Assembly (NCBI RefSeq): GCF_900129355.1
Contig: NZ_FQVL01000001.1
Span: 541,753-573,752, forward strand
Origin: Seinonella peptonophila
Lineage (GTDB): Bacteria; Bacillota; Bacilli; Thermoactinomycetales; Thermoactinomycetaceae
Length of the DNA: 32,000 bases
Direction of reading: 5' to 3'
Of this stretch, positions 24,460 to 31,000 are shown piece by piece (position 1 is the stretch's first letter; every line of letters starts with the position of its first letter). A program made the position numbers and the translations under genes. The notes beneath the pieces are model-generated. The model worked only from the letters and a program-made list of their open reading frames with translations. It ran no database searches and had not been told where the DNA came from.

Positions 24460-25206
24460 TCAATTATAAAGCCACTGTGTCAAATCAAGTGGTGCAAATT
24501 TTAGATAATCACAAGCAACCAAGCATAACTGTACCTCATCTATGTTACCTTGAATCGCATCGTAAGCAGACGAGCCATGTAAATGACCAAAAAGGCAGAG
24601 GCGAACTGAAAATTCTTTTAACAGCTGAAAAAAACCTGATTCCGTACATCCTTTTGTCAATGGCGGATAATGTAACATGCAAATAATCGGTCGATCAGGA
24701 TGATGTTTTCTAGCATCAGTTAAAGCAAGTTGTAGTCGACCCACTTGTCGTTCATAAATTTTGCGATCTGTTTGTTCCTGGAATGAATAATCTCCTGGTA
24801 AATTCCAACCTCTTGTCGCTACTACAACATAGTCCTCCACTAATGTCCAGTCTGCATCGATCCATTCCATGCCTTCTGGAAGTGCTTCACGAACTTTCTT
24901 TTTGCTATGTGCATAATAACAATGATTTCCTGGAGATAGCACTTTGTTACCTGGCAATTGGGCAATCCAGTCAAAATCCCAAACAGCTTCACTCAAACGT
25001 AGTCCCCAACTTATATCTCCAGGAATGAGAACAGTATCAGATACCCCCACGTGTTCGACCCAATGATCTCGGATCAAATCAAAGTAGCGTGGGTTCCAGT
25101 CAAATATATCCATTGGTTTTTCGATATCCTGTTTGGGATCAATCTGATAAAGATTAACTTTATGTCGAAAAGATAAATGTAAATCACTTAACCCAAAGAT
25201 TGCCAT
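24460..25206 (-). CDS. Calcineurin-like metallophosphoesterase
   Basis: Ordered metallophosphoesterase motifs: SDLHL (DxH), GDISW (GDxx), GNHCYY (GNH), HYPP and GHLHG. Confidence 0.85.
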   Translation of the reverse strand: MAIFGLSDLHLSFRHKVNLYQIDPKQDIEKPMDIFDWNPRYFDLIRDHWVEHVGVSDTVLIPGDISWGLRLSEAVWDFDWIAQLPGNKVLSPGNHCYYAHSKKKVREALPEGMEWIDADWTLVEDYVVVATRGWNLPGDYSFQEQTDRKIYERQVGRLQLALTDARKHHPDRPIICMLHYPPLTKGCTESGFFQLLKEFSVRLCLFGHLHGSSAYDAIQGNIDEVQLCLVACDYLKFAPLDLTQWLYN

Positions 25207-25292: not shown

Positions 25293-26999
25293 TCAATATA
25301 ATATGGTTTTCCCTTCGACATTGAGCGTTACTCTTTGAATAATGGGAGCGATCTGTCTAGAATAAGTTAAGTTTTTCTGTTCATTTCCATCATAAAATTG
25401 AATCATAGAACGTGTATGAGTTGTATAAATATGAACCTTTATCAATTTACTTCCTTGCTGAATCCAATCTGTTTTTTTCACGGCCATTTTCTTCAATTGC
25501 TCCTGTAAATAAAAAAGCTCAAGTCTTGATTTTGCATTCCAGTAAGCTTTCCATTGTTGATGATCAGTAGTGAGTAGATTAATAGAAAACGGATATTGCA
25601 TGGTTACCGGACGAATCATAAACGACTTTTTCAAATGAAGCTGTTCCACTGTTGAACCTGGAAACAAAACGGTTTTATTATTCATGATTTTCCCTTGACC
25701 GAAAACCAACCGCCAAGGAGTCGGATATAAATAAGAGATTGAACGATTGACTCGTTTTTTAACCAGTTCAGTCCGCGGCTGTTTTACCACAACCATTCCT
25801 TTACCTTCTATCCGCACAATAAAAGAAGATGCTATGGGTAGAGTGCCAATTCCTATCCATTTTAGCTTTGATCCAGATTCTTGAAGCTGAACCGCCAAAG
25901 GTTTCCCTCGCTCATATTCAATGATATAATGATATATTTTTCTTGGTTTCACGCGAAACTCCGATGAGATCAACATCGGCAACTGCCGTTTTCCTGACCG
26001 TTGATATAGAATAATCCGCCCATTCGAAGAGACTGTCAAGCCATATTGCTTTTCTTTATCTTTTTTTGATTGTAATAAAAAATAAAAAGTAGAACCTTTA
26101 CCCATCGAAAAACTACCTGTAATACGAGAAAATCGATCCACACCCACAGGCAATTGGTATTCCCTGTCTCTGTTTCGAAGATCGAACCAAGCAGGATTCG
26201 TGTAAAAATGATCGTTTGCTTTATCTTGCTGTGGCAGGCAAGTATGATAGGTACTTGTACTTTTCACTATGAAAATGAACATCATGAAAACTCCACACAG
26301 AACCACCCATTTCCAATGAGGCTGTTTTTGTATCGTCTTTTTCCAATATTCATCTAAATAATCATTCAATATTTCCATAAATGTTTGCATGGTCATCTTA
26401 GAGGTGATGACCTGTTTAATCAATTTAGATATCGATGAAGGGATCTTATTTACTTTCAACTGAATAAATAAATCTTCTACTCCTGAATCATAAAATTGAC
26501 CAGTTAGTAAAAAAGGTAATAATTTTCTCCAACTCTCATGCTCTTCTTCAAGATGTTCCACAGAAAAAAACAGTAATAAGGGATCACCTTCCCGAACCAG
26601 TATTTTTTTTGGATCACATGCAATGTGTAGAGGAAGATTCGTTTCTTTTACATACACGATCACTTGCAAAACTTTAAGTACAAATTGCATTGCTTGATAC
26701 AGTTCCATAGGACGATTCGGATTTACTTCTAACAATAAAGGTTCCCCGGTATTTGGAGGATGCACCAAAATCAATTGATTATCTTCAAGAATCATATCAA
26801 GAATCGGAACGATATAAGGATGTTGTAACTGCTGCATTAGCTGGTTTAAACTCATCTCTTTTATCGTTAAATCATATAAAGGAATTTTTTGAAGGCAAAG
26901 AGAGGTACCATCTAATGACCTTGCTTGAATTAACTGCCCTGTTATAGAGTCAATTACATCTTCAACAAAAAATCTTTGATCATACTGAGAATGTAACAA
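25293..26999 (-). CDS. Membrane-anchored pseudokinase-like protein, paralog B (hypothetical)
   Basis: The N-terminal ~210 aa show the order of protein-kinase subdomains with degenerate catalytic residues (LCLQKI; HPYIVPILDM..LILVH; LHIACDPKKILV in place of HRDxKPxNIL; no DFG; SWRKLLPFLLTG). One TM helix (WKWVVLCGVFMMFIFIV) precedes a ~300-aa beta-rich C-terminal region. TTG start with an AGGGTG SD. Confidence 0.6.
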   Translation of the reverse strand: MLHSQYDQRFFVEDVIDSITGQLIQARSLDGTSLCLQKIPLYDLTIKEMSLNQLMQQLQHPYIVPILDMILEDNQLILVHPPNTGEPLLLEVNPNRPMELYQAMQFVLKVLQVIVYVKETNLPLHIACDPKKILVREGDPLLLFFSVEHLEEEHESWRKLLPFLLTGQFYDSGVEDLFIQLKVNKIPSSISKLIKQVITSKMTMQTFMEILNDYLDEYWKKTIQKQPHWKWVVLCGVFMMFIFIVKSTSTYHTCLPQQDKANDHFYTNPAWFDLRNRDREYQLPVGVDRFSRITGSFSMGKGSTFYFLLQSKKDKEKQYGLTVSSNGRIILYQRSGKRQLPMLISSEFRVKPRKIYHYIIEYERGKPLAVQLQESGSKLKWIGIGTLPIASSFIVRIEGKGMVVVKQPRTELVKKRVNRSISYLYPTPWRLVFGQGKIMNNKTVLFPGSTVEQLHLKKSFMIRPVTMQYPFSINLLTTDHQQWKAYWNAKSRLELFYLQEQLKKMAVKKTDWIQQGSKLIKVHIYTTHTRSMIQFYDGNEQKNLTYSRQIAPIIQRVTLNVEGKTILY

Positions 27000-27031
27000 A
27001 TGAATTCACCCTAATCTATTGATACATTTAA

Positions 27032-28747
27032 TTATTTATTTAATATTCTCAAAAGATATTTGTCAGTTCTAATATGAATATACTGAAAAATCATCGGCTG
27101 TTTTAGTTGATAGGTTAAGTCCCTGCTCTTTTTATCTTGTTGAATGGTAAATCGAAGCCGTTCTCCTTGGTTCATCATGACCAGTTCCGTTTCATCTTTA
27201 GGATTCCATTTCTTGGGCAATGGGATAGAAGATAATCGTTTCATTTGCGTAGTCACTTGTACTAATTCGATTGAATGGCTTGGATGATAAAAGAGAATAA
27301 ATCGCTCAGAAGTTAATGACTCTAATTCAATCAGAGGTATACTCTTTTCATCATCTTGCCCCTGCCACCGGTAATGAAAAGTTGGACAATATGGATACTG
27401 AAATTGGGATTGTTCCATCAATATGATTTGTTTAGACTGCTCTACCAGATTTCCATGTACTAATTGCCCACCATCTTTCTGTCTCCATAATAATTGAGCC
27501 CTATTATTTTTTGTTACTTTCACTTGTTGGATATGGGTCATCCAATTCCCAAGAAAAAAGAGCTGGTACTCCTTTTCACTTAACACCGGTCCCACGATCA
27601 ACCACTTTTGATCTTGTGAAGATACATTTATGTAAAGGGGCTTATTGGGCTGAAAGATCAATTGAAATTTATATTCCTGCTTTGGCTTTAAATGAAAGGT
27701 CGAACTGGCGCGATCTTGCGTGGAAATCTTTTTCTTATGCCCAGCAATGATATAGGGATATCCTTGATGATCAAAATGTAGACCAAAGCGCTCCTTATCA
27801 GGAGTAACAAAAAAAGCAGAAAAAGGCGATACTTCTTTCTGAATAAAGGAGAATTGCACCACTGTTGGTTGTTTTAAGGTTTGATTCATATATAAGCTAC
27901 TAATCTTTTGATCGTGAAAAGAGATTTGAGGAATGGTGATAACATCAGCATGTTTATTCTGCTGAACGCTTGTAGAAGAGACTGGTTTTAGCCAATCATT
28001 AACAAAATGTAAGCTCAAGCCCATTCCTAACATAGAAAATGCTGTAATCCCAATCCACCAATACTTTTTCCCCTTTCTTGAATGAACCTTTCGTCTAGGA
28101 ACGGTTGCAAAATGAGCTTGTTCACATAGTTGTAGCATATCTTCGGGTGTAATCAATGGCTCAAAACTTCGGTAAAGTAACTCTCTAATCTGGATGGGTA
28201 AACAACTTTGTAAGGATGAGATAGTAGCATCTTTTTTCCCGGTTAAAAGAAAAGGAAATAAGCCTCTCCAACTATTCTCAAATTGTTCAACAGCTTCTCC
28301 AACTGAACTGCAAAGTTTTACAAACAAAAGATAAGGTTGGTGAACCAAGAAAATATCTTCTGGCTCCATATGAACAACCATAGGGATCTCATAATGAAGC
28401 AGATGAATCGCTGTTCGTAGCAGATTTTGATATAGCTTGATCGCTTGATCTGGTAGCATCGGTTTTTTTATTGTGACTAACTGAGTTAAAGGGCGAAGTT
28501 TCATATATGGATGAACCAAAATCAATCGATTCCCAGACTGTATCACTTGTTTGATAGGGTATAAATATGGATATGTAAGCTGTGCCATCAATTGTTGCAC
28601 ATGGTTGATATCACGATATGGATTATAAATCTCTTGAAGATAAACTTGTTCCCCTTGGGTTGAATTAGACAAGATAAGCTGACCTTTTGGATACCGTATC
28701 ACATCCTTTACCTGAAAAGTCTCGTAATAGTGCTTTTCCTCACTCAA
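27032..28747 (-). CDS. Membrane-anchored pseudokinase-like protein, paralog A (hypothetical)
   Basis: It aligns block-for-block with paralog B (VKDVI, YLQEI, LMAQLTYPYLYPI, LILVHPY, VVHMEPEDIFLV, SWRGLFPFLLTG). One TM helix (YWWIGITAFSMLGMGLSL) precedes a beta-rich C-terminal half. TTG start with an AAGAGGAA SD. The gap to paralog B is 32 nt. Confidence 0.6.
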   Translation of the reverse strand: MSEEKHYYETFQVKDVIRYPKGQLILSNSTQGEQVYLQEIYNPYRDINHVQQLMAQLTYPYLYPIKQVIQSGNRLILVHPYMKLRPLTQLVTIKKPMLPDQAIKLYQNLLRTAIHLLHYEIPMVVHMEPEDIFLVHQPYLLFVKLCSSVGEAVEQFENSWRGLFPFLLTGKKDATISSLQSCLPIQIRELLYRSFEPLITPEDMLQLCEQAHFATVPRRKVHSRKGKKYWWIGITAFSMLGMGLSLHFVNDWLKPVSSTSVQQNKHADVITIPQISFHDQKISSLYMNQTLKQPTVVQFSFIQKEVSPFSAFFVTPDKERFGLHFDHQGYPYIIAGHKKKISTQDRASSTFHLKPKQEYKFQLIFQPNKPLYINVSSQDQKWLIVGPVLSEKEYQLFFLGNWMTHIQQVKVTKNNRAQLLWRQKDGGQLVHGNLVEQSKQIILMEQSQFQYPYCPTFHYRWQGQDDEKSIPLIELESLTSERFILFYHPSHSIELVQVTTQMKRLSSIPLPKKWNPKDETELVMMNQGERLRFTIQQDKKSRDLTYQLKQPMIFQYIHIRTDKYLLRILNK

Positions 28748-28847
28748 GTTCAGTTCCTCTTTTCTAAAATATACTATCGCTTCCGAATGATGAAAAAGTC
28801 TATTACCAATTATACTAAATTTTTTCTAATCTTCCATCTTTAGATTT

Positions 28848-29669
28848 TTATCTATGAAAAGTCCAATTCGAATGTGCATATTTTTCCTTAACTAACCTTT
28901 CCGCAAGATCCTCTTCATACTTTGATAACGCCCCTTTTCTAAACGAAACACCTAACCCTTCTGAAAACCCGTTCAAAAGTGCATTTTCAAGCTCCAATAT
29001 GGTAGGTAGTGGATGTAACCATTCTGCCAATGATGTGGATCTTCTTTGAAAATCGATTTGTAAATTTTGACGTTGTCTCTCTGAACGAAAATTTAGTAAC
29101 TGAAATAAAACATGATCATGCGATGCTAAAAGCAATGAACCATGTTGCAGCAACATATTATTTTGACGAGTTTGGGCACTTCCAACTAGTTTTCGTCCAT
29201 CAATCTCAATTTCATATGAGGAGGAAGTATCAAAACAAGCTGCCGATGTTAGAGATCCTTTTGTGATTGCCTTTGAATTTGTTTTAGATAGAGGCAAATC
29301 GAACTGTTTTAAGGCTACAACCAATCCTTGACTAATCCATCGGTGAGAATCGGTTATAGATTTTGGAACCATTTCATTTTCAAGCGGCGAGATTAAACTA
29401 TAAGTGACCTCTTGATCATGTAGGACAGCTCTTCCGCCTGTTAGTCTACGAACCATTTCTACATTGTGTAGCTTTAATTGATCCTTCTTTACTGCTTGCT
29501 CCGCTTTTTGAAAATAACCTATCGAAAGACCAGCAGGTTTCCAACCATATAAGCGTACAGTTGGTGGAACAAGACCTTTCCGACAAGCAATCATCATCGC
29601 CTCATCAATCGCCATGTTAAGCGCAGGATGAAATCTTTGATAAGTAAGAAATCGCCATTTCTTCCCCAT
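28848..29669 (-). CDS. lipM: Octanoyltransferase / lipoate-protein ligase family protein (LipM-like)
   Basis: LplA/LipB-type catalytic domain (LRLYGWKPAGLSIGYFQ, RRLTGGRAVLHD.EVTYS, GRKLVGSAQTR) with a Cys in AACF where LipM has its acyl-thioester Cys. Synteny matches B. subtilis yqhM near gcvPB. The ATG overlaps the upstream stop (TAATG). Confidence 0.8.
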   Translation of the reverse strand: MGKKWRFLTYQRFHPALNMAIDEAMMIACRKGLVPPTVRLYGWKPAGLSIGYFQKAEQAVKKDQLKLHNVEMVRRLTGGRAVLHDQEVTYSLISPLENEMVPKSITDSHRWISQGLVVALKQFDLPLSKTNSKAITKGSLTSAACFDTSSSYEIEIDGRKLVGSAQTRQNNMLLQHGSLLLASHDHVLFQLLNFRSERQRQNLQIDFQRRSTSLAEWLHPLPTILELENALLNGFSEGLGVSFRKGALSKYEEDLAERLVKEKYAHSNWTFHR

Positions 29670-30160
29670 TAACGATCCTCCTCATATTCAATTCGATGCT
29701 CAACTTGCTTTGGCAAATGATGAATACTCGTTCGAAGAAACGCTGGATAGAGTGGTGCATCTTTCAGTTCATCCAAAGGAATCCATTCAAATAGAAACTT
29801 GGAATCATTTTCTTCGATGGTAAATCTTGTTTGATCTAAAATCGGATTCCAATTGACCGGTTGAACTAAATAATAAAAGCACAGTTCATGAAAATTTGTG
29901 CCTTTATCCAGAAAAAAATTCTCTACTATGTAACATAGCCGATTAATCTTCACTTCAATCCCTAATTCTTCCTCCATTTCTCGAATGACCGTTTTGGTAG
30001 ATGGCTCAAACCATTCACACCTTCCGCCTGGCAACAACCATGTTTCCCAGTCAATAAATCGGTGTAAGAGAACTTTCTGTTGATGAATCAAGATTGCAGC
30101 TACCCGGTAATTAAAACGATCTTTTTCTTGATGAAATGATATCAATTTTGTACGCTCCAT
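29669..30160 (-). CDS. NUDIX hydrolase
   Basis: Nudix box GGRCEWFEPSTKTVIREMEEELGI (GX5EX7REUXEEXGU). The start is ambiguous: the track start at 30220 overlaps the upstream gene by 79 nt, and internal ATGs at 30181 and 30160 are more plausible. I chose 30160. Confidence 0.75.
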   Translation of the reverse strand: MERTKLISFHQEKDRFNYRVAAILIHQQKVLLHRFIDWETWLLPGGRCEWFEPSTKTVIREMEEELGIEVKINRLCYIVENFFLDKGTNFHELCFYYLVQPVNWNPILDQTRFTIEENDSKFLFEWIPLDELKDAPLYPAFLRTSIHHLPKQVEHRIEYEEDR

Positions 30161-30771
30161 TCTTGTTCGAGTTTTATGCATCGTCCATGAAATTGCTGAA
30201 CATCTGTGCCATATGTCCAATCTAATAACTTTGGTTGTAAATGATCTTCGTATGCTTGATACTCCATTTCACCCCTCCAACGTGTCACGACAAGGAAGCG
30301 ATCACGATCAATCTGTTCTTCAGCAAAAAAGCCTCCCAACATTCCAGGCGCATGTGACATGCTAAGATTCCAAACACTCTGCTGAACTAGCATAAATTGT
30401 TCTCTTTGCCCTGTTTTTACGCGAATATCACTAATTTTCATCAGGCTATCTTCATTTATAGGCCCAGCTAAGAAATCCTCGTCGACTTGTCCAGGTATAT
30501 CAATAATTTTTTCATATTCCTGGGTAGAGCAATAACGGACGAGATGTTGGGAAACACATATAGACTGATATTGATGATAATTTTGTTCGTAACTGTGCTG
30601 GTCTTTCCAACATGTTAAAATTGATGCCTCACTTGATTTCTCTACATTCCAACCACCTAACTGCCCTATTAATCCAGCGATCTGCAAATCTTGAATTCTA
30701 TTTGCTTGCGCTTCCGAAAAAGCTTGCCGCTGTGAAATGGGCACTTTACAAATTGTCCATGTCACAATCAT
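30142..30771 (-). CDS. Tandem ABM/dimeric alpha-beta-barrel protein (DUF4937-like)
   Basis: MIVTWTICKVPISQRQAFSEAQ...GLIGQLGGW resembles the DUF4937 N-terminal pattern, and a second similar half (KISDIRVKTGQREQFMLVQQSVW...GMLGGFF) follows. ATG 30771 follows an AAGGGGA SD. The track's TTG 30804 has no SD. Confidence 0.55.
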   Translation of the reverse strand: MIVTWTICKVPISQRQAFSEAQANRIQDLQIAGLIGQLGGWNVEKSSEASILTCWKDQHSYEQNYHQYQSICVSQHLVRYCSTQEYEKIIDIPGQVDEDFLAGPINEDSLMKISDIRVKTGQREQFMLVQQSVWNLSMSHAPGMLGGFFAEEQIDRDRFLVVTRWRGEMEYQAYEDHLQPKLLDWTYGTDVQQFHGRCIKLEQEWSVQN

Positions 30772-31000
30772 GTCAGGGTCCCCTTTATCAGAGAAAATCA
30801 CCAAAATAATCCATAAACACCATTTCTGTTTCTCTGTTTATTTGCTTTTTCCTTTTTCATTCGTTGATAATCAGATATGAAGTCAAAGTAACTATTTCCA
30901 CATTTTCTTTTAACAAAAACCCATTCACTCAAGATAATCCAATTAAGATTCTTATGCATATTAAAATAATTTGTTTCTGCATTCTAATAGATAAACTGTA

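What the first reader, a model, noticed from the sequence alone, without database searches (positions are those of the whole stretch)
25293..28747. Tandem paralogous membrane proteins with degenerate kinase-like N-terminal domains and unrecognised extracytoplasmic halves
Seen in sequence: two adjacent co-oriented ORFs of 571 and 568 aa, separated by 32 nt and both starting at TTG, share block-wise similarity. Examples are VKDVI/VEDVI, YLQEI/CLQKI, LMAQLTYPYLYPI/LMQQLQHPYIVPI, LILVHP in both, and SWRGLFPFLLTG/SWRKLLPFLLTG. The motif order mirrors Hanks-type kinase subdomains: a beta3 Lys position, an alphaC/HPxIV segment, a hinge LV, a catalytic loop and the xLTG helix. The catalytic residues are missing, however. 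The glycine-rich loop is absent, HRDxKPxN is replaced by HIACDPKK or HMEPED, and there is no DFG. Each protein then has one TM helix and ~300 aa of beta-strand-like sequence that looks like two jelly-roll or LamG-like modules (low-confidence inference). There are no PASTA repeats. Established knowledge: bacterial pseudokinases are rare and mostly uncharacterised, and a duplicated transmembrane pair suggests a heteromeric sensor or scaffold. I could not match them to a named family.
Basis: partly seen in the sequence, partly recalled or inferred. Interest (0 to 1): 0.6.

Follow-up and report, generated by a model that had tools for sequence, protein, structure and literature searches.

The report
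Paired membrane pseudokinases, lectin-like ectodomains
Two neighbouring genes encode membrane proteins with a catalytically dead protein-kinase domain inside the cell and two lectin-like beta-sandwich domains outside; they belong to an unnamed, fast-evolving family seen only in Thermoactinomycetales, with untested function.

Summary
Two co-oriented minus-strand ORFs (27032-28747, 571 aa; 25293-26999, 568 aa) start at TTG, lie 32 nt apart and are paralogues (BLASTP E=1e-23, 25% identity).

- The N-terminal ~215 aa is a Hanks-type kinase fold. A family profile hits Snf1 and DAPK in the PDB at E=4e-6, and Foldseek of an AF2 model (pLDDT 80) hits kinases at E~1e-7.
- Across 33 family members the beta3 Lys is Gln, the HRD Asp is Thr/Ala/His, the DFG Asp is an invariant Phe, the Gly-loop is gone, and ~30 aa of the activation segment are deleted.
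- One N-in transmembrane helix follows, then two beta-sandwiches that match LamG, galectin and ConA-like folds.

New findings:
- The family is restricted to Thermoactinomycetales among the genomes searched (41 of 53 genomes) and is annotated only as "hypothetical".
- It sits in a conserved position after the lipM-like gene.
- A and B are old paralogues, not a recent duplication.
- The pseudokinase domain resembles EssB/YukC (hhalign E=3e-6) as well as true kinases.
- The family is not tied to type VII secretion genes, and its ectodomain is all-beta, not helical.

The most likely function is a non-catalytic membrane receptor or scaffold. The partner and ligand are unknown. I class it as a new variant of a known kind, of moderate interest. 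An earlier scan note covers this same stretch.

The parts
27032..28747 (-). Gene A: 571-aa bitopic membrane pseudokinase (upstream paralogue)
   Evidence: ORF. Family membership. In the tree it groups with the upstream gene of the Lihuaxuella/Paenactinomyces pairs (support 100/98).
28103..28732 (-). A, cytoplasmic pseudokinase domain (about residues 6-215)
   Evidence: Pkinase sub-threshold hit at residues 52-145. Family alignment. The catalytic-loop relic is VVHMEPED: His at the HRD-Asp position, Glu at the Lys position, Asp at the Asn position.
28001..28057 (-). A, transmembrane helix (residues 231-249)
   Evidence: The only hydrophobic window in the protein. Seven K/R residues on the N-flank versus one on the C-flank.
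27035..27955 (-). A, extracytoplasmic half (residues 265-571), two beta-rich modules
   Evidence: Aligns with the ectodomain profile A4 (E=5.9e-83). Domain fold is inferred from the model of paralogue B.
25293..26999 (-). Gene B: 568-aa bitopic membrane pseudokinase (downstream paralogue)
   Evidence: ORF. AF2 model with a 33-sequence alignment has mean pLDDT 79.7. In the tree it sits in the core clade (support 97/93).
26355..26987 (-). B, cytoplasmic pseudokinase domain (about residues 5-215)
   Evidence: Foldseek hits to AMPK, CDPK1, CDK2 and CaMKII at E~1e-7, with TM-score normalised to target up to 0.55. hhalign to the genome's own PrkC-like kinase. Key residues: Q37, A127, D129, K132, F144.
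26262..26315 (-). B, transmembrane helix (about residues 229-246)
   Evidence: Kyte-Doolittle 19-residue window peaks at 1.95. K/R count is 4 versus 1 across the flanks. The model has a helix at 229-245.
25764..26192 (-). B, first extracytoplasmic beta-sandwich (residues 270-412)
   Evidence: About 10 strands with pLDDT ~90. Fold matches to LamG, galectin and ConA-like proteins. This module is also present in the short (~430-aa) family members.
25299..25715 (-). B, second extracytoplasmic beta-sandwich (residues 429-567)
   Evidence: About 11 strands. Weak internal similarity to module 1 (hhalign E=1.7e-4). Absent from the short family members.
28809..28817 (-). Promoter-like -10 element (TAGTATAAT) in the 100-nt gap between the lipM-like gene and gene A
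   Evidence: Sequence. The same TTTAG(C/T/G)AT block, 16-17 nt after TTGATT or TTGCTT, is conserved upstream of orthologues in 12 or more relatives. In the window the -35 element is poor. This is an inference only.

Best explanation
A and B are two old paralogues of an unnamed family that, in every search run here, turned up only in Thermoactinomycetales. Each is a bitopic membrane protein with three parts.
- A cytoplasmic, catalytically dead Hanks-type pseudokinase domain of the truncated EssB/YukC kind. It has no Gly-loop, the beta3 Lys is Gln, the HRD Asp is lost, the DFG Asp is Phe, and the activation segment is deleted.
- One N-in transmembrane helix.
- Two extracytoplasmic concanavalin/LamG-like beta-sandwiches.

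Shown here: the architecture, the fold, the loss of catalytic residues, the lineage restriction and the conserved genomic position.

Inferred: the proteins do not phosphorylate anything. They act as a non-enzymatic receptor or scaffold. The lectin-like ectodomains would bind an envelope component, most plausibly a cell-wall glycan. The well-conserved pseudokinase domain would serve as a dimerisation or docking surface for a cytoplasmic partner, for example one of the three true Hanks kinases of the genome. This parallels how EssB/YukC and the MviN pseudokinase work. Homo-oligomers are probably the ancestral state, and an A/B hetero-oligomer is possible but optional.
For: Paralogy.

Kinase homology: E=3.8e-6; E=1.3e-8.

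Kinase fold: on a model of pLDDT 79.7.

Catalytic residues absent in all 33 aligned members:
- beta3 Lys position: Gln in 31, His in 2.
- HRD Asp position: T26/A2/S2/H1/V1/P1.
- DFG Asp position: invariant Phe.

EssB/YukC-like character:
- hhalign E=3e-6 over 193 nearly gap-free columns.
- Shared T-x-x-x-P-x-N relic of the catalytic loop.
- Shared short activation segment.
- YukC was shown not to bind ATP and to act as an interaction hub (PMC9600267).

Topology.

Ectodomain fold: Gas6 LG pair, E=6.8e-7; galectin, LamG and ConA-like hits, E=1e-9 to 1e-7.

Constraint is strongest on the pseudokinase domain. Mean pairwise identity is 48% there, against 32% and 26% for the two beta modules. This fits a conserved intracellular partner and a variable outside.

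The ORFs are intact, have RBSs, and lie downstream of a promoter-like element conserved among orthologues.

The family was found in 41 of 53 genomes of the order, in a conserved position after the lipM-like gene.
Against: - No partner, ligand or phenotype is known, and no expression data could be obtained (tool unavailable).
- The gene neighbourhood gives no functional clue. Neighbours are lipM-like, metallophosphoesterase, mntR, class II RNR and aminotransferase genes.
- The ectodomain fold rests on one AF2 model with whole-chain Foldseek hits of low TM-score. No sequence-level match to any lectin or LamG family was found.
- The family keeps a conserved Asp-Pro-x-Asn in the catalytic-loop relic and a Glu at the alphaC position. 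Some ligand binding in the pocket therefore cannot be excluded for relatives.
- A and B themselves have lost that Asn and sit on very long branches, so they may function differently from the rest of the family.
Confidence: 0.6

Rival explanations
1. The domain is an atypical but active enzyme. It would use non-canonical residues to bind nucleotide and catalyse phosphorylation or another transfer, as WNK, POMK, SelO or SidJ do.
For: The family conserves D129, P130 and N132 in the loop relic, Q37 in beta3, and a Glu at the alphaC position. The review PMC12599244 describes bacterial 'pseudokinase' families (DYD, DLHK) that are predicted still to bind ATP.
Against: - All three canonical catalytic or metal-binding residues are missing, and so is the Gly-loop.
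- An invariant Phe replaces the DFG Asp. Together with the FFSG segment it probably fills the pocket, as in MviN and YukC (PMC12599244, PMC9600267).
- The activation segment is deleted.
- A and B have even lost the conserved Asn.
Confidence: 0.08
2. A and B are divergent EssB/YukC orthologues, that is, membrane subunits of a type VIIb (or similar) secretion machine.
For: They share the architecture of cytoplasmic pseudokinase, one TM helix and an ectodomain. The profile-profile similarity to YukC is significant (E=3e-6).
Against: - The Pfam YukC model does not hit A or B. It hits a different 469-aa gene on another contig of the same genome.
- YukC was found in only 8 of 31 relatives, whereas this family was found in 41 of 53.
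- No T7SS genes lie in the window.
- The YukC ectodomain is all-alpha (PMC9600267). Here it is all-beta.
Confidence: 0.04
3. In this genome the two copies are under relaxed constraint and are on the way to becoming pseudogenes. Their intact frames would be a remnant rather than evidence of function.
For: - Terminal branches are 2.2 and 2.14 substitutions per site, against a median of 0.33. Composition is deviant.
- A and B are the only two of 33 members that lost the conserved Asn.
- Some paralogue copies in relatives carry in-frame stops.
Against: - Two uninterrupted 1.7-kb frames in ~36% GC DNA, each with an SD sequence.
- The family's invariant core residues are retained: G31, P87, L88, P130, L143, F144, L160, L164, G167, F305 and Y356.
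- The whole family evolves fast. Laceyella versus Baia is 32% identical for this protein, against 64-80% for neighbouring genes. The long branches are therefore partly a family trait.
Confidence: 0.1

Closest known systems
EssB/YukC, the membrane pseudokinase of the type VIIb secretion system of Firmicutes (Pfam PF10140; PDB 4ANN, 4ANO, 6Z0F as cited in PMC9600267 and PMC12599244)
   Same: - Bitopic, N-in topology.
- An N-terminal pseudokinase of ~210 aa with all catalytic motifs degraded, the Gly-loop degraded and the activation loop shortened.
- One TM helix, then an ectodomain.
- Profile-profile similarity of E=3e-6 over 193 columns, with a shared T-x-x-x-P-x-N loop relic.
- EssB/YukC is non-catalytic, dimeric and an interaction hub, which is the working model adopted here.
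   Different: - A and B fail the Pfam YukC model. The genome has a separate YukC gene.
- There is no T7SS gene context.
- The phyletic pattern is uncoupled from YukC.
- The ectodomain is two beta-sandwiches rather than an 8-helix bundle (PMC9600267).
MviN (MurJ) pseudokinase of Mycobacterium tuberculosis, ActPs3 family (Gee et al. 2012, as summarised in PMC12599244)
   Same: - An intracellular pseudokinase with all motifs lost and an activation-loop deletion.
- Bulky aromatic residues in the ATP pocket.
- A TM helix C-terminal to the pseudokinase, followed by an extracellular carbohydrate-binding-like beta domain.
- It acts as a scaffold, not an enzyme.
   Different: - MviN is fused to a 14-TM lipid II flippase. 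A and B are not.
- MviN is actinobacterial, not from Bacillota.
- MviN works through PknB phosphorylation and recruitment of the FHA protein FhaA. No Pfam FHA match was found in this genome, though that test is insensitive because the models also miss B. subtilis YukB.
- No sequence-level link to MviN was tested.
PrkC/PknB/StkP-type transmembrane Hanks kinases with PASTA ectodomains
   Same: - The same overall layout: kinase-fold domain, TM helix, wall-facing ectodomain.
- The strongest profile similarity of the N-domain, E=1.3e-8 to the genome's own three kinases. StkP hits the family profile at E=9e-4.
   Different: - The true kinases pass Pkinase at ~200 bits and carry K, HRD and DFG. A and B score 16-17 bits and lack all of these.
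- A and B have no PASTA repeats.
- About 30 aa of the activation segment are missing.
LamG / concanavalin A-like lectin-glucanase superfamily (for example the Gas6 LG-domain pair, PDB 1H30)
   Same: A tandem pair of ~140-aa jelly-roll-like beta-sandwiches. Foldseek gives E=6.8e-7 to 1H30, and E=1e-9 to 1e-7 to viral galectin, LamG and ConA-like proteins.
   Different: There is no sequence-level match to any Pfam LamG, CBM or galectin model. One relative gave CBM_4_9 at E=0.001, and nothing was found in PDB by profile. TM-scores are low because the whole chain was the query, and no ligand-binding residues could be identified.

Membership tests
Hanks-type (eukaryote-like) Ser/Thr protein kinase, Pfam PF00069 | Match to the Pkinase model above the gathering score (31.7 bits) | tested here: not met
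   15.7 bits (A) and 17.4 bits (B), covering only profile positions 50-139. The best score among 23 relatives is E=1.7e-4.
Hanks-type (eukaryote-like) Ser/Thr protein kinase, Pfam PF00069 | Bilobal protein-kinase fold | tested here: met
   Foldseek of the AF2 model of B gives kinases as top hits, at E~1e-7, prob 1.0, with target-normalised TM-score up to 0.55. Viral kinases also hit.
Hanks-type (eukaryote-like) Ser/Thr protein kinase, Pfam PF00069 | Catalytic residues: Gly-rich loop, beta3 Lys, HRD Asp, catalytic-loop Asn, DFG Asp | tested here: not met
   From, with register taken:
- Gly-loop is replaced by FFSGQL.
- beta3 Lys is Gln (31 members) or His (2).
- HRD Asp is Thr, Ala, Ser or His.
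- DFG Asp is an invariant Phe.
- Asn is kept in 31 of 33 members, but is Lys in B and Asp in A.
EssB/YukC (Pfam PF10140) | Match to the YukC model above its cut-off | tested here: not met
   No YukC hit for A or B at E<=1. A search of the genome itself hits only a 469-aa gene on contig C40.
EssB/YukC (Pfam PF10140) | Architecture: N-in truncated pseudokinase, single TM helix, ectodomain | tested here: met
   (193 aligned columns, E=3e-6).
EssB/YukC (Pfam PF10140) | Encoded within a T7SSb cluster (EssC/YukB, EsaA/YueB, WXG100), with an all-alpha ectodomain | tested here: not met
   Window neighbours are gcvPB, DUF4937, NUDIX, a lipM-like gene, a metallophosphoesterase, mntR and a patatin gene. 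YukC was found in 8 of 31 relatives, against 41 of 53 for this family. The ectodomain is all-beta, whereas YukC's is all-alpha (PMC9600267).
MviN-type (ActPs3) pseudokinase module | Fusion to a MurJ/MviN flippase, and dependence on an FHA partner | tested here: not met
   There is only one TM segment. No Pfam FHA or Yop-YscD_cpl match was found in the genome. The control genomes show that this test misses B. subtilis YukB-type FHA domains.
PASTA kinases (PrkC/PknB/StkP) | PASTA repeats in the ectodomain | tested here: not met
   No PASTA hit for A or B. The genome's own PrkC-like protein does hit PASTA at E=3e-18.
LamG / concanavalin A-like superfamily | Jelly-roll beta-sandwich fold | tested here: met
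   Foldseek hits to the Gas6 LG pair (E=6.8e-7) and to LamG, galectin and ConA-like viral proteins (E=1e-9 to 1e-7). The model has pLDDT ~85-95 in these domains. This is predicted structure only.
LamG / concanavalin A-like superfamily | Sequence-profile match to a curated LamG, CBM or galectin model | tested here: not met
Annotated bacterial pseudokinase families (ActPs1-3, GLW, CP1, DYD, DLHK; PMC12599244) | Family-specific motifs: GLW in place of HRD; beta3 Arg plus DYD; DLHK; and so on | tested here: not met
   The family's motifs are V-x-L-Q, T-T-L-D-P-R-N and L-F-Y. None of the motif signatures quoted in the review fits.

The most novel reading that the evidence does not exclude
This is an undescribed, order-specific class of EssB-like receptor pseudokinases. 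It has been freed from the type VII secretion machine and fitted with tandem lectin-like ectodomains. It would read the state of the cell envelope (glycan) and pass it to a cytoplasmic partner through a non-catalytic kinase fold, possibly governing hyphal growth or endospore formation in thermoactinomycetes. In sequence terms the family also bridges EssB/YukC and true Hanks kinases. It scores E=3e-6 against YukC and E=1.3e-8 against true kinases, while YukC against true kinases reaches only E=3e-3.
Probability: 0.25. Interest if true: 0.6.

Novelty: new variant of a known kind. Interest (0 to 1): 0.45.

Why it matters
Bacterial pseudokinases are now recognised as common, but almost none has a known function. 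EssB/YukC and MviN are the only well-understood membrane examples.

This family pairs an EssB-like dead kinase with lectin-like ectodomains, a combination I found no description of in the papers searched. Among the genomes searched it occurs only in Thermoactinomycetales (41 of 53 genomes). It has one to four copies per genome and occupies a conserved genomic slot.

It offers a clean system for asking how a kinase fold without chemistry transmits information across a membrane. Sequence comparison also places it between EssB/YukC and true Hanks kinases, which bears on the origin of EssB.

It is not a surprise in kind, and no phenotype is attached to it yet.

Tried and rejected
- Word-indexed homologue search, with gene A and then with a 23-sequence alignment, returned only the query. 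The family is too divergent for shared 5-mers.
- The search for related loci with the 23-sequence alignment failed because no stretch was conserved enough. It worked with a 10-sequence subset.
- Single-sequence AF2 of A was useless, at pLDDT 37.
- A profile of the ectodomain found nothing in the PDB.
- NCBIfam gave only an insignificant MADS6 kinase hit.
- The basic charge of B's ectodomain (+29) looked like a clue to binding of an anionic polymer. It is not conserved in the family, so I dropped it.
- I considered linkage to the downstream metallophosphoesterase as a phosphatase partner. In most relatives a class II RNR gene and an opposite-strand aminotransferase lie between them, so I dropped it.
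- The NUDIX gene two genes upstream recalls the NUDIX gene in the M. tuberculosis mviN operon (PMC12599244). I treat this as coincidence.
- MviN-like FHA recruitment: no FHA match in the genome, but the test is insensitive.
- Sporulation-sigma promoter motifs were not evident by eye in the conserved upstream block. It looks sigma-A-like.


Full report
**Observation**

One search confirms two minus-strand ORFs: A at 27032-28747 (571 aa) and B at 25293-26999 (568 aa). Both start at TTG and lie 32 nt apart.
- BLASTP of A against B gives E=1e-23 and 25% identity over ~510 residues, so they are true but old paralogues.
- Both starts have SD-like sequences 7 nt upstream.
- Homologues begin within a few residues of the same position.

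**N-terminal domain**

Single-sequence searches give only sub-threshold but consistent kinase hits.
- Pfam Pkinase scores 15.7 and 17.4 bits against a cut-off of 31.7, over profile positions 50-139.
- phmmer against the PDB returns only kinases, at E=0.01-0.2.

Profiles make the homology significant.
- A 23-sequence family profile hits Snf1 at E=3.8e-6, DAPK1 at 5e-5 and StkP at 9e-4. Family 'VfLQeI' aligns on VALKII, and 'TTLDPrNI' aligns on HRDLKPEN.
- hhalign of the N-domain profile against the genome's three true Hanks kinases gives prob 95.6% and E=1.3e-8. It shows a gap of about 30 residues where the kinases have the activation segment.

An AF2 model of B built on a 33-sequence alignment (mean pLDDT 79.7) retrieves protein kinases as top Foldseek hits in the PDB. 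These include AMPK, CDPK1, CDK2 and CaMKII, at E~1e-7, prob 1.0, with target-normalised TM-score up to 0.55.

Column counts over the 33 members are as follows.

| Canonical position | State in the family |
|---|---|
| beta3 Lys | Gln in 31, His in 2 |
| HRD Asp | Thr 26, Ala 2, Ser 2, His 1, Val 1, Pro 1; never Asp |
| Catalytic-loop Lys | Asp in 31 |
| Catalytic-loop Asn | kept in 31; Lys in B, Asp in A |
| DFG Asp | invariant Phe |
| Gly-rich loop | FFSGQL |

The domain is therefore a kinase fold without the catalytic machinery. The refuting condition 'catalytic residues present on proper alignment' is not met.

**Relation to EssB/YukC**

A 2025 review (PMC12599244) and the YukC structure paper (PMC9600267) describe EssB/YukC as follows.
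- It is a Firmicute bitopic pseudokinase with all motifs degraded and an attenuated activation loop.
- It cannot bind ATP.
- It acts as the interaction hub of the type VIIb secretion system.

The profile comparisons here gave these results.

| Comparison | Result |
|---|---|
| N-domain profile vs an 8-sequence YukC profile from relatives | prob 88%, E=3e-6, 193 almost gap-free columns |
| N-domain profile vs true kinases | E=1.3e-8 |
| YukC profile vs true kinases | E=3e-3 over 45 columns |

The YukC relic 'TVFHPLNFF' aligns on 'TTLDPRNIL'.

Even so, A and B are not EssB.
- The Pfam YukC model misses them and hits another gene in the same genome.
- YukC was found in 8 of 31 relatives, while this family's ectodomain was found in 41 of 53 genomes of the order.
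- The window holds no T7SS genes.
- YukC's ectodomain is an 8-helix bundle (PMC9600267), whereas this one is all-beta.

**Membrane and ectodomain**

Each protein has one hydrophobic segment with a clear positive-inside bias. The model shows two beta-rich domains, at B 270-412 and 429-567, with pLDDT mostly 85-95.
- Foldseek finds the Gas6 LG-domain pair at E=6.8e-7.
- In BFVD it finds galectin, LamG and concanavalin A-like proteins at E=1e-9 to 1e-7.
- The two modules are weakly similar to each other (hhalign E=1.7e-4).
- Short family members of ~430 aa have only the first module.
- No curated sequence model matches, and no PDB profile match exists.

The LamG-like assignment therefore rests on predicted structure alone.

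**Distribution and evolution**

- An exhaustive HMMER search of 1.84 billion representative proteins finds only 43 clusters at E<=1e-3, about 30 of which are family members.
- All named loci are Thermoactinomycetaceae: Marininema, Kroppenstedtia, Melghirimyces, Laceyella, Thermoactinomyces, Hazenella, Lihuaxuella, Baia, Croceifilum and others.
- In 301 genomes sampled from the class, full-length matches occur only in the same order. Outside it, only ~85-residue matches to ordinary ~660-aa kinases appear.
- Within the order, 41 of 53 genomes and 22 of 30 genera have the family, with one to four copies each.
- Sources name the members 'hypothetical protein'.
- An earlier scan note names the organism as Seinonella peptonophila. 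My data show only that its relatives are Thermoactinomycetaceae.

Synteny is conserved: the lipM-like gene, then one or two family genes, then in many genera an aminotransferase plus class II RNR (or MrfA/MrfB), then the metallophosphoesterase, mntR and a patatin gene.

The tree places A with the upstream gene of the Lihuaxuella and Paenactinomyces pairs (support 100/98). It places B in the core clade (97/93). The duplication therefore predates these genera.

The family evolves fast.
- Laceyella versus Baia is 32% identical for this protein, against 56-80% for neighbouring genes.
- The window's copies sit on branches about six times the median length.
- The pseudokinase domain is the most conserved part, at 48% mean pairwise identity. 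The two beta modules are at 32% and 26.5%.

**Regulation (inference only)**

Orthologues share an upstream TTGATT/TTGCTT-N16-17-TAG(C/T/G)AT block that looks sigma-A-like. The window keeps TAGTATAAT (28809-28817, minus strand) but has a poor -35. No terminator-like site separates A, B and the downstream metallophosphoesterase gene. RNA evidence could not be obtained.

**Mechanism**

The best-supported reading is a non-catalytic, bitopic receptor or scaffold.
- Lectin-like modules face the wall.
- A conserved dead kinase fold serves as a dimerisation or docking surface, by analogy with YukC/EssB and MviN.
- Because many relatives have a single copy, an A/B heteromer cannot be obligatory for the family.
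- An MviN-like FHA route finds no support, since no Pfam FHA match was found. That test also misses B. subtilis YukB, so it is weak.

Rivals and their confidences: an atypical active enzyme (0.08), an EssB orthologue (0.04), and decaying copies (0.10).

**Verdict**

The family is undescribed, but it is a variant of a known kind (membrane pseudokinases). Its function remains untested.

Noticed in passing
L039:4093-6996 (+), i.e. G000 contig C28 about 94092-96995, outside the window: A third paralogue in the same genome. It is a 967-aa protein whose first ~220 residues are the same kind of pseudokinase domain (hhalign prob 97%, E=2.4e-11; YLQS, KDLHNI) but whose C-terminal ~740 aa are unrelated. 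It lies next to a Spo0M-family gene. N-domain-only relatives of 300-1060 aa occur in most genomes of the order. This fits an earlier scan note on another Thermoactinomycetaceae pseudokinase operon.
   Followed up: partly
L021, L022, L033, L024, L025, L034, L031, L020, L027, L030, L037, L038, L016, L019: about 60-110 nt upstream of the family gene: A conserved promoter-like block, TTGATT/TTGCTT-N16-17-TAG(C/T/G)AT, followed by a ~70-80-nt leader and a GGTTAGGGG RBS in the Thermoactinomyces/Laceyella group. It suggests the gene has its own sigma-A-type promoter.
   Followed up: partly
G032:C3:14166-15926 (= L010 2658-4547); G038:C8:122354-123667; G029:C152:1955-2434: Extra paralogue copies in relatives carry single in-frame stops (TGA, TAA, TGA). 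This suggests ongoing birth and death of copies in this family.
   Followed up: no
window 28848-30804 (-): The genes for DUF4937/ABM (220 aa), NUDIX (183 aa) and the LplA-B_cat lipM-like protein (273 aa) overlap or abut on the same strand upstream of gene A. No terminator-like site lies between the lipM-like gene and A, so read-through transcription into A is possible.
   Followed up: partly
G000 contig C40: 72946-73455 (L054:799-2208, -): The genome has a bona fide YukC/EssB homologue (469 aa; Pfam YukC 55 bits). It presumably belongs to a type VIIb secretion system, which only about a quarter of the sampled relatives possess.
   Followed up: partly
window 24460-25206 (-): The calcineurin-like metallophosphoesterase directly downstream of B is highly conserved across the family (about 63% identity). 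It is adjacent to the pseudokinase gene only in this genome and in the Baia/Croceifilum group. Elsewhere a class II ribonucleotide reductase and a class IV aminotransferase lie between them.
   Followed up: yes
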